A stretch of DNA of 64,000 nucleotides from Hormiphora californensis (taxonomy: Eukaryota > Animalia > Ctenophora). Below the pieces are notes generated by a model that worked only from the letters and a program-made list of their open reading frames with translations, had not been told where the DNA came from and ran no database searches. Both the position numbers and the translations under genes were made by a program. Of this stretch, positions 6,675 to 63,843 are shown piece by piece; position 1 is the stretch's first letter; each line of letters opens with the position of its first letter. The stretch spans positions 4,216,001-4,280,000 of the forward strand of contig CM035353.1 in the NCBI GenBank assembly GCA_020137815.1, given 5' to 3'.

Positions 6675-9600
6675 ATGTTCCTTTACCACCTGACACTCCA
6701 GAGAGCGAGCAGTATCTATAACTGTGTACATGGTAACTTCGCTGGAACGAAGCAACAGGAGGTCGTAGTTGGGCGAGGTTAGTGTTTTAGGGTGGTTAGG
6801 AGCTGCGTTTAGGGCATGAAAATCTTCCCTCTCGCCATTAACATTGGGATTACTGACAGTAAACTTACCAGGTAAAATTCTGGAGATATTGAAGATTGAT
6901 CCCAATACCGGGAAAGTTATTCAGCTTTACTCTACTGAAGTATTCGGAACTATTCGGTCCATTATTCCTTTCCGGCTTACCGGTAAGTGCCTGATGAGTG
7001 CATCCATTAATTTAGCTGACTTTCCTGGTTTTGCTCATTCTTATTCTGTTGCCTTTTTTCCTGATACATATAATATTCAGTATTCACGATCCGATGGCCA
7101 AAGGTTTTCATCCGTCCTTTGTAACTCACATTATTCTTGAGTTATACAATATCTGTTATTTATCTCTAGGAGGGTCAAAGGATTACATTGTCGTGGGTTC
7201 AGACTCCGGGAAAATTAACATATTGGAGTACAACCCAACGAAGAATGTGTTTGAAAAAGTTCACATGGAAATCTTCGGGAAGTCTGGGTGTCGAAGAATA
7301 GTGCCAGGTACCATTATCTTGTAATTTGTCTCCTCAATTTAACTAACCCTCCCAGTGCACAGGGATCTGTGACAATTTGAACCATTCCCCCCAGGTCAGT
7401 ACCTTGCTGTTGACCCCAAGGGCAGGGCCGTCATGGTTGGAGCAGTGGAAAAACAAAAACTAGTGTACATCATGAATCGTGATGATCAGGTAAACTGGAC
7501 AAGGACCAAACATGGTGTTAGAGGGTCCTCAATTGCATTTAAACTATCCCTCAACCCCTACCAAATGAATAATTAACAAGTCACTCTATGCCCCCATTTT
7601 GTTAAGAACCTCCCCATTTATCAGGCTCGTTTGTTAAATGTTAAGAACCCGCCATTTATCAGGCTCGTTTGTTAAGAACCCCCCATTTATCAGGTCGTTT
7701 GTTAAGAACCCCCCATTTATCAGGCTCGTTTGTTAAGAACCTCGCATTTAACAGGCTCGTTTGTTAAGAACCCCCCATTTATCAGGCTCGTTTGTTAAGA
7801 ACCCCCCATTTATCAGGCTCGTTTGTTAAGAACCCCCCATTTATCAGGCTCGTTTGTTAAGAACCCCCCATTTATCAGACTCATCCCTCAACCCCTCAAT
7901 AACAAGTCACTCTATACCCCCTATTTATCAGGCTCGTTTGACCATCTCCTCGCCTCTGGAGGCACACAAAGCGAACACCATTGTGTTTGATATCTGTGGG
8001 GTTGATGTAGGGTTTGAGAACCCAACATTTGCCTGTCTGGAGCTGGATTACGAGGAGGCGGATGGGGATCCAAGTGGAGAGGCTGCCCAGATGGCACAGC
8101 AAACCCTCACCTACTATGAACTGGATTTGGGTATGTATTGTCATAACTCATAAGAGCCCCGTGGTGTGCAAGCATACACCTTGAATTTTTCATACTTTTT
8201 TGTGTACCGTGGACAATGCGTCACGAGACCAAAGTACCTCCAGGTATATCCTCCAATTATCACACACACTAGAGAGACATGTTATTTAACATCTAACCAC
8301 GTCTCTCTTTGTCTCACATAAGTGTGATAAACGCCGCTGTGGGTCATGAATGCAACTGGAGCAGCGTGTGCAAAGTTTGTTTGTAAAAGGCATGTTAAGA
8401 ACATGGGATACTGAGTTCTCCCCCTCACAAATCATGTGATCATCATCTCTTCACAGGTCTAAATCACGTGGTTAGGAAGTACAGTGAGCCGTTAGAAGAC
8501 CACGCCAACATGCTGATATCTGTACCGGGTGGAAATGAGGGACCCAGCGGTGTCCTCATCTCATCTGAGAACTACATTACCTATAAGAACTTTGGAGATC
8601 AACCTGATATCAGATGCCCTATTCCTAGGTACAAGCATCCTTTTTCCCTCACTCGACACTATCTCTTTTTTTCCTGCCTCTGGCACCTGCCGTCTCTCTG
8701 ACAGATGGTCAGATCTGGCACCTGCCGTCTCTCTGACAGATGGTCAGATCTCTTTCACTTTATCTCTCCCCCTCTCTCCTCTCTGTCTATCTCTGTCTAT
8801 CTGTATCTTTCTTTCTCCCTCTCACTCTCTACTATCTATCTCTCTCATCAGACGAAGAAACGATCTGGATGACCACGAGCGAGGAATGCTGTTCATTTGC
8901 TCTTCCACTCACAAAACCAAATCAATGTTTTTCTTCCTTGCACAGACTGAACAAGGAGATATCTTTAAGATAACTCTCGAGGTAAGTAGCAGGGAGATAT
9001 GCATTATGTTATAATCTTTTAAATAACACTGCCGTAGAGGAAGATAACTTACTATAAAATTGTGAAATTGTAACAGTGTAAATTTTTGAAATTGTAACAT
9101 TGCAAAATTGTGACATTGTGACATTGTAATAAAGTTGTGACGTCATTGTGACTTTTCCTTACACAGGTTGATGAAGATGTAGTAACCGAGATCAAGTTGA
9201 AATATTTCGACACGGTGCCTGTCTGCAATGCAATGGTGGTCCTCAAGACTGGATTCCTTTTCTTGGCATCAGAATTCGGAAATCACTACCTGTATCAGGT
9301 ACAGTCGGACCCCGATTTAGGGACACCCTCGGGGGAAAGGCTCTTGTCCACTAAATCGGGGTGTCCACTAAATCGGGGTCAAATAAGGTTAATTTCCTAT
9401 ATCGGGGAAAAAAAATCCTGTCCCTAAATCGGGGTGCCACTAAATCGGGGGCCCCTAAATCGGGGTCCGACTGTACTGTGATTACTGTAGCACAGCCGGA
9501 CCCCGGTTTACCGGGAGTTTCCGGTAATCTCATTCCCGCCCCATTTAAATACATTTTGGTACCTTTGTCCTAGCTAAATGGTTAGCCAGGGCGTGTTAAA

Positions 9601-63843: not shown

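What the first reader, a model, noticed from the sequence alone, without database searches (positions are those of the whole stretch)
7590..63665. Splice junctions are repeatedly amplified into tandem arrays in four unrelated genes
Seen: at least seven tandem repeats include the exon-intron boundary itself: SF3B3 acceptor 7590-7940 and donor 23466-24400, NDRG donor 26568-26806, GALNT-like donor 46151-46276, TPR-gene donors 49184-49430 and 62424-63665 and acceptor 60240-60620. In the donor arrays each unit runs GT...AG, so the intron starts as a chain of 36-64-nt mini-introns separated by zero-length exons. Established: tandem duplication of an AG|GT site is a proposed intron-gain route, and AG|GT ratchet points define recursive splicing. 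Inference: a junction-focused amplification process, and a spliceosome that picks the outermost site or removes units stepwise.
Basis: partly seen in the sequence, partly recalled or inferred. Interest (0 to 1): 0.8.

Follow-up and report, generated by a model that had tools for sequence, protein, structure and literature searches.

The report
Comb-jelly "mirage" repeats at splice sites
Seven short tandem repeats in four comb-jelly genes have copied an exon edge and its splice signal into the neighbouring intron, an oddity already named "mirages" in lancelets and known from human genes; the copies are likely neutral by-products of repeat growth in very short introns, and at the one junction that RNA could check, only the genuine site was seen in use.

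Summary
The seven arrays are real and sit where stated, in a pleurobrachiid-like ctenophore. Short-read contigs from two other samples support both SF3B3 arrays; the other five were not checked. They match known "mirage" minisatellites (amphioxus; human F7, ABCA7), and this scan has noted them in annelids, urchins and abalone. The outermost site restores the reading frame at all seven; 54 of 58 inner copies would give a stop or frameshift. RNA contigs from two studies use the first SF3B3 donor. Junction overlap exceeds a whole-window null (7 of 38, 2.8 expected), but not a short-intron null (7 of 20, 6.0 expected; units of 30 nt or more 7 of 10, 4.2 expected, P=0.06). Repeats that touch no junction also favour short introns (13 of 31, 6.8 expected). 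Recursive removal is poorly supported: 1 of 43 inner donor copies has the minimal ratchet motif, and every unit is shorter than the window's shortest intron (73 nt). No intron was gained. Still open: why arrays favour short introns, and how up to nine strong upstream acceptors are skipped.

The parts
7598..7882 (+). SF3B3 intron 4 (7490-7931) acceptor array: 31-nt unit holding the acceptor plus 9 exon bases; 9 inner AG copies; true acceptor at 7931
   Evidence: ends of the array seen in DNA contigs X1 and X5; RNA did not cover this junction
23462..23924 (+). SF3B3 intron 10 (23506-24465) donor array: 46-50-nt unit = 44 exon bases plus GT; the first donor is used
   Evidence: RNA contigs X7 and X8 join 23505 to 24466
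23925..24377 (.). Inverted-repeat element (MITE-like, G/C-run ends) inserted in the last donor copy, with a 7-nt flanking duplication; the original 71-nt intron follows at 24395-24465
   Evidence: high depth and many loose ends in X1 and X5
26568..26793 (+). NDRG intron 4 (26602-26910) donor array: 3 inner donors at +63, +99 and +168; a 10-nt exact match between exon and intron at the seed ends
   Evidence: P0011 reads across without insert
46149..46277 (-). GALNT-like intron 2 (46244-46057) donor duplication, 64 nt x 2
   Evidence: frame matches P0015
49184..49430 (+). TPR-gene intron 7 (49194-49594) donor array, 38 nt x 6.3; 2 of 6 inner copies have lost the GT
   Evidence: junction inferred from open-frame continuity only, no homologue covers it
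60239..60620 (+). TPR-gene intron 20 (60231-60617) acceptor array: 41-43-nt unit with CTAAC, pyrimidine tract and CAG, in a 168-nt higher-order repeat; collapses to about 52 nt
   Evidence: outermost acceptor matches P0001
62423..63660 (+). TPR-gene intron 25 (62458-63772) donor array, 49 nt x 25, 24 inner donors
   Evidence: first donor matches P0001
6675..24606 (+). SF3B3 (RSE1) gene, 11 exons; the window carries 1-nt insertion errors at 21436-21971
   Evidence: errors absent from X5 contigs
25110..38611 (+). NDRG gene, 8 exons, open frame of 347 aa
41733..63843 (+). Long TPR gene (25 introns modelled; runs off the window); hosts the GALNT-like gene and a GPCR gene antisense in its introns
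   Evidence: one frame break near 61795, likely an assembly error
45016..48072 (-). GALNT-like gene (GT2 plus ricin-type lectin domains in homologue P0015), nested in TPR intron 4

Best explanation
These are 'mirage' minisatellites: ordinary tandem repeats whose 31-69-nt seed includes a splice site, likely seeded by replication slippage or repair at short matching sequences and likely kept because the extra copies end up inside the intron and are spliced out with it. How it works. (1) Shown: repeats are common here (43 arrays in 64 kb) and short introns collapse to a median of about 120-155 nt, so a 40-nt seed touching such an intron has roughly an even chance of holding a splice site. (2) Inferred: seeding at microhomologies; 4-10-nt matches lie at the seed ends of four arrays, 1 nt at GALNT, while the SF3B3 acceptor and 49184 seeds are unclear. 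Later growth by slippage or unequal exchange would give the variant units and higher-order repeats. (3) Shown for one donor, inferred for the other six junctions: the spliceosome uses the site nearest the exon body, i.e. the first donor or last acceptor, and removes the array in one piece. (4) Inferred: occasional use of an inner copy mostly yields a stop and would be cleared by nonsense-mediated decay; arrays that broke splicing would be purged, so survivors look alike.
For: Arrays and unit structure. First donor used in RNA contigs of two studies although the inner donors score higher (11.0 versus 9.6) and the first three are in frame. P0011 crosses the NDRG junction cleanly; P0001 and P0015 match only the outermost sites. 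53 of 58 inner sites give a stop, 1 a frameshift and 4 an open insert. Junction overlap within short introns equals expectation: 7 of 20 versus 6.0 (P=0.39); by own host intron 7.1 expected (P=0.62). Arrays touching no junction are also enriched in short introns: 13 of 31 versus 6.8, P=0.010. A duplication also straddles a stop codon (32052-32132), another tolerated coding edge. Decay: 2 of 6 inner GTs lost in one array and a transposon-like insert in another. A nearby 35-nt duplication is missing from one X1 contig, so such duplications segregate. Precedents: PMC3087553, PMC3902484, PMC1557585, PMC5954066.
Against: Against the whole window, junction overlap is enriched (7 of 38 versus 2.8, P=0.018; units of 30 nt or more 7 of 12 versus 1.4, P=0.0002). 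For long units a borderline excess remains within short introns (7 of 10 versus 4.2-5.4, P=0.06-0.22). Why arrays favour short introns is unexplained; GC is 0.40 in both classes. The SF3B3 acceptor has 9 upstream copies scoring 7.0-9.9 against 9.4 for the true site, and no RNA covered that junction. RNA contigs drop rare forms and come from other individuals, whose alleles may differ. The TPR 60231 intron collapses to about 52 nt, below any intron seen here.
Confidence: 0.76

Rival explanations
1. Duplications arise preferentially at or near exon edges, through a transcription- or splicing-linked lesion (R-loops, nucleosome edges, break hot spots), and are then tolerated as above.
For: 20 of 38 non-exonic arrays touch short introns versus 10.1 expected (P=0.0005), and 10 of 12 long-unit arrays versus 3.3; this holds after masking dispersed repeats. 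Six of 13 non-junction short-intron arrays begin or end within 14 nt of a splice site. Borderline excess of junction seeds for long units (P=0.06). No GC difference explains it.
Against: Within short introns the junction count fits chance for all units together (P=0.39-0.78). The long introns here are largely transposon-derived and nested-gene DNA, probably young (inferred), and my repeat mask came from self-comparison of the window only, so it is incomplete. The window was selected for the feature.
Confidence: 0.15
2. Donor arrays are removed stepwise as recursive mini-introns (zero-length exons), or mis-spliced products are repaired by re-splicing at AG|GT.
For: All 5 donor arrays follow an exon ending in AG, and 41 of 43 inner copies keep AG|GT. 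SF3B3 units carry a CTGAC 31-33 nt before each AG. Recursive splicing does occur in small introns, though less often than direct splicing (PMC10156609 passages).
Against: AG|GT is the base rate (30 of 50 other donors; P=0.09). Only 1 of 43 inner copies has the Y5+N0-4YAGGT motif, while 28 of 56 true acceptors have its acceptor half. Inner AGs of SF3B3 and TPR 62458 mostly score in the lowest 8-13% of true acceptors. Units are shorter than the 73-nt minimum intron. It cannot apply to the acceptor arrays. No intermediate joint in two RNA runs (contigs drop rare forms).
Confidence: 0.05
3. Some arrays are inflated or created by assembly error.
For: The window has 1-nt insertion errors in SF3B3 (6 places absent in X5). 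X1 has no depth over the centre of the SF3B3 donor array. Five arrays were not checked in other DNA.
Against: Both SF3B3 arrays appear in two short-read samples. Units carry patterned variants, decayed copies and an inserted element, which mis-assembly would not produce.
Confidence: 0.04

Closest known systems
Amphioxus 'mirage' minisatellites (Adh3, globins BflGb6 and BflGb9, troponin C, PGBD5); passages read in PMC3087553 and PMC3902484; the original Adh paper (PMC117041) was not held
   Same: Tandem units of tens of bases spanning exon-intron boundaries, on both donor and acceptor sides, in several unrelated genes; many but not all copies keep AG/GT; normal splicing reported; the intron-gain idea was already proposed there.
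   Different: Different phylum (ctenophore); seven cases in 64 kb; somatic and allelic length instability, shown for Adh3 and BflGb6, was not shown here.
Human F7 intron-7 37-bp VNTR (PMC1557585; abstract and Discussion read)
   Same: First unit spans the exon-intron border; five to nine identical donors; only the most upstream is used, including when some inner ones keep the frame, as seen here for SF3B3.
   Different: Tested by mutation in cells; a single locus; donor side only.
Human ABCA7 intron-18 25-bp VNTR (PMC5954066; passages read)
   Same: Each unit begins with the donor GT; the second donor is used at low level and the product goes to nonsense-mediated decay.
   Different: Array length there shifts skipping of the next exon and disease risk; no such effect is known here.
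Intron gain by tandem genomic duplication (PMC3443670; passages read)
   Same: Tandem duplication that includes an AG|GT.
   Different: That route duplicates a purely exonic segment and creates a new intron; here existing introns are lengthened.
Recursive splicing / ratchet points (PMC10156609; passages read)
   Same: AG|GT dinucleotides inside an intron.
   Different: Ratchet sites carry a pyrimidine tract before YAG|GT and are shown by lariats; 1 of 43 copies here has the motif, and no lariat data exist.

Membership tests
Mirage minisatellites | Tandem array with a minisatellite-sized unit | tested here: met
   Units of 31-69 nt, 2-25 copies
Mirage minisatellites | Unit spans an exon-intron boundary of the host gene and carries its splice signal | tested here: met
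   All seven hold the GT or AG; exon share ranges from 3 nt (60239) to 44 nt (23462); the 49184 junction rests on frame continuity only
Mirage minisatellites | Normal mRNA is still made from the authentic site | tested here: inconclusive
   Met for the SF3B3 donor (RNA contigs) and NDRG (P0011); no RNA for the other five
Mirage minisatellites | Length variation between alleles or cells | tested here: inconclusive
   Contigs cannot give copy number; X1 and X5 depth differ over the SF3B3 donor array; only a non-junction duplication was seen to segregate
Recursive splice sites | Pyrimidine tract plus YAG joined to GT (Y5+N0-4YAGGT) | tested here: not met
   1 of 43 inner donor copies
Recursive splice sites | Segments long enough to splice | tested here: not met
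   Single units are 36-69 nt; the shortest of 56 introns is 73 nt. Removal of two or more units at once is not excluded.
Recursive splice sites | Lariats or intermediate joints in nascent or total RNA | not testable with these tools
   Only assembled contigs of environmental RNA were available
Intron gain by tandem genomic duplication | New intron made wholly of a duplicated exonic segment with AGGT | tested here: not met
   Six introns keep 71 to about 190 nt of unique sequence; the seventh is built of intronic units

The most novel reading that the evidence does not exclude
Minisatellites in this ctenophore are born preferentially in exon-flanking DNA (2-3 times the density of other non-coding DNA) by a transcription- or splicing-linked process, and are a main engine of short-intron growth. 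The acceptor ladders, with nine strong AGs skipped in the essential SF3B3 gene and eight CTAAC-bearing ones in the TPR gene, would show that 3' site choice in an early-branching animal with 70-200-nt introns is set from the downstream exon rather than by the first AG after a branch point.
Probability: 0.17. Interest if true: 0.55.

Novelty: new member of a known kind. Interest (0 to 1): 0.22.

Why it matters
The structure is known, so the main value is range and use. It extends mirages to ctenophores: no ctenophore report appeared in the listings of four searches, and none showed a genome-wide enrichment test. That suggests mirages follow from short introns plus active minisatellites in any animal. 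The arrays are natural splice-site ladders, and the acceptor ladders are a ready test of 3' site choice. In practice they mislead gene predictors and short-read assemblies.

Tried and rejected
No whole genome is held, so the genome-wide test could not be run. A metagenome scan with the TPR exon after the acceptor array returned 4 loci at 38-62% identity over short stretches, none of them this gene. RNA runs X7 and X10 did not bridge the SF3B3 acceptor junction: no evidence either way. The idea that arrays persist only at AG|GT donors because mis-splicing can be repaired was tested and is not significant (P=0.09). A missing branch point as the reason inner SF3B3 acceptors are skipped could not be shown: YTRAY occurs at only 21 of 55 true acceptors versus 8 of 41 background windows, and the true SF3B3 acceptor lacks it too. 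GC content does not separate short introns from other non-coding DNA. No tRNA genes. No earlier notes on this genome. The original amphioxus Adh paper was not held. No supplements were read; those of the amphioxus papers may hold further splice data.

Full report
Setting. The window is animal DNA with short introns and nested genes. A TPR exon matches a Bolinopsis microptera protein at 86% (P0001) and an EukProt model at 99% (P0002); NDRG exon 1 matches another such model at 99%. That the 'sb/' prefix marks Pleurobrachia bachei is my recall, so I call the animal a pleurobrachiid-like ctenophore. No whole genome is held. I modelled 10 genes and 56 introns by hand, using homologues and Pfam. Introns run from 73 nt, with a median of about 190 nt, and four exceed 5 kb. 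Two nested-gene models are imperfect, and several frames are broken by single-base errors; six such insertions in SF3B3 are absent from X5 contigs.

Observation. TRF finds all seven arrays at the stated places, and the unit-by-unit print shows what each holds. Five units hold a donor and two an acceptor. The GALNT case is only a two-copy duplication. The TPR acceptor unit overlaps its exon by 3 nt. The SF3B3 acceptor array is a displaced copy ending 49 nt before the true AG. A 453-nt inverted-repeat element interrupts the last SF3B3 donor copy, after which the original 71-nt intron survives. The three TPR arrays belong to one gene whose model reads open from 41733 to about 61795; the 49194 donor rests on that continuity alone. 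Short-read contigs of two samples run without mismatch into the SF3B3 acceptor array. At the SF3B3 donor array, X5 shows raised depth and an X1 contig breaks where the array starts, although X1 has no depth over its centre. Five arrays were not checked in other DNA, and no copy number was confirmed.

Which site is used. RNA contigs from two studies (X7, X8) join 23505 to 24466, the first SF3B3 donor, with no other joint listed in that intron. This is so although inner donors score higher on a matrix trained on the window's own sites (11.0 versus 9.6) and the first three would keep the frame. Contigs drop rare forms, and these animals' alleles may differ. P0011, a protein from a 1-kb contig that lacks the introns, reads straight across the NDRG junction. 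P0001 and P0015 match the outermost sites of TPR 60231, TPR 62458 and GALNT. Of 58 inner copies that keep their dinucleotide, 53 give a stop, 1 a frameshift and 4 an open insert. RNA did not cover the SF3B3 acceptor, and no related TPR locus was found.

More than chance? I listed 43 arrays with units of 15 nt or more: 41 clusters plus two rows. Seven hold a junction, 13 lie inside short introns, 18 in long introns or intergenic DNA, 4 in exons and 1 across a stop codon. The 5 exonic or stop-edge arrays were left out of the tests. The 7598 array was counted as junctional by hand, and results without it are also given. After collapsing each array to one unit: against all non-exonic DNA, 7 of 38 versus 2.8 expected (P=0.018), and for units of 30 nt or more 7 of 12 versus 1.4 (P=0.0002). 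Against the 52 short introns, 7 of 20 versus 6.0 (P=0.39), and for long units 7 of 10 versus 4.2 (P=0.063). Against each array's own intron, 7.1 expected (P=0.62) and 4.7 for long units (P=0.10). Masking dispersed repeats and microsatellites raises the expectations further. So the signal is mainly that arrays favour short introns (20 of 38 versus 10.1). Arrays touching no junction show the same (13 of 31 versus 6.8, P=0.010). GC is 0.40 in both classes, so the short-intron preference is unexplained. Young transposon-rich long introns are my guess, and an exon-linked origin is the live rival. All tests are post hoc, on one window picked for this feature.

Mini-introns and intron gain. GT...AG units follow automatically when the exon ends in AG, as 30 of 50 other donors here do (5 of 5 versus 30 of 50, P=0.09). 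The minimal recursive motif used in PMC10156609 (passages) occurs at 1 of 43 inner donor copies, whereas 28 of 56 true acceptors carry its acceptor half. Units are 36-69 nt, under the 73-nt minimum. Two of six inner GTs in one array have decayed. The acceptor arrays regenerate no donor. That paper also reports recursion in small introns as a rarer route, so low-level stepwise removal of two or more units is not excluded. Intron gain by tandem duplication needs an exonic seed that creates a new intron (PMC3443670 passages); here old introns were lengthened.

Mechanism. Seed ends show short matches: G-AAG in exon versus donor GTAAG at the SF3B3 donor, 10 nt at NDRG, 4 nt at TPR 60239, 6 of 7 nt at TPR 62423, 1 nt at GALNT. 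The SF3B3 acceptor array appears to derive from an older duplication of about 55 nt plus a 7-nt inverted copy. Slippage or repair at such matches, then growth by unequal exchange, is standard minisatellite behaviour (general knowledge; inferred here). A duplication across a junction leaves one intact exon edge and pushes all other copies into the intron, so it is neutral if the site nearest the exon is chosen. For donors this was shown by mutation at human F7 (PMC1557585 abstract and Discussion). At ABCA7 the second donor is used at low level and the product is degraded (PMC5954066 passages). The acceptor side is the open point. SF3B3 has nine upstream copies scoring 7.0-9.9 against 9.4 for the true site, and the TPR array has eight, all with CTAAC, two scoring 7.9 against 8.8. 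Exon-anchored choice plus decay of errors is my inference; it is untested.

Comparison and novelty. Tandem duplications of exon-intron boundaries on both sides, silent in splicing and proposed as a route to intron gain, are described as 'mirages' in amphioxus Adh3, globins, troponin C and PGBD5 (PMC3087553 and PMC3902484 passages; the original Adh paper was not held). I had reached this reading before consulting the scan's notes, which list 22 similar findings in at least 7 genomes (unchecked AI notes, not used as support). Listings showed no ctenophore case and no genome-wide test. PMC8527503 (passages) reports 13% tandem repeats in a related ctenophore genome; the passages shown did not mention this feature. 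Verdict: a real feature, a new member of a known kind, interest 0.22.

Noticed in passing
9299-9474: A very high-copy inverted-repeat element (summed depth thousands of times single-copy in X1 and X5) sits in the TA of the SF3B3 intron-8 donor (G-TA, element, TA), leaving the donor intact; a related copy lies about 10 nt into the TPR intron at 59771.
   Followed up: partly
21436-21971; near 47425; near 61795; near 39430: Single-base frame breaks in SF3B3, GALNT-like, TPR and RRP36 coding sequence. The six in SF3B3 are absent from X5 contigs, so the others are likely assembly errors too.
   Followed up: partly
9769-15760 (-), 32092-36000 (-), 45016-48072 (-), 50884-53205 (-): All four long introns hold antisense nested genes: three paralogous genes of unknown family in SF3B3 intron 8, an LDLa-7TM receptor in NDRG intron 6, and GALNT-like and 7TM receptor genes in TPR introns.
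   Followed up: partly
32052-32132: A 40-nt tandem duplication straddles the stop codon of the nested receptor gene, a coding-edge duplication tolerated for the same reason as the junction arrays.
   Followed up: partly
8679-8751: A 35-nt intronic duplication in SF3B3 is missing from one X1 contig, so it is likely polymorphic.
   Followed up: partly
60231-60617: This intron collapses to about 52 nt, shorter than any other intron in the window; either a very small ancestral intron or the array replaced older sequence.
   Followed up: no
35779-35994 and 41751-41823: In-frame coding repeats (42 nt x 5 and 36 nt x 2) near the starts of the nested receptor gene and the TPR gene.
   Followed up: no
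6869 to 7168 (X10 contig): One low-depth RNA contig is listed as a joint from 6869 to 7168 with unknown letters between and only 24 letters on one side; possibly exon-2 skipping or a mapping artefact.
   Followed up: no
122-190 (-): A 24-nt repeat reads as a Gln/Glu/Lys-rich open frame on the minus strand; possibly an exon of a gene running off the window.
   Followed up: no
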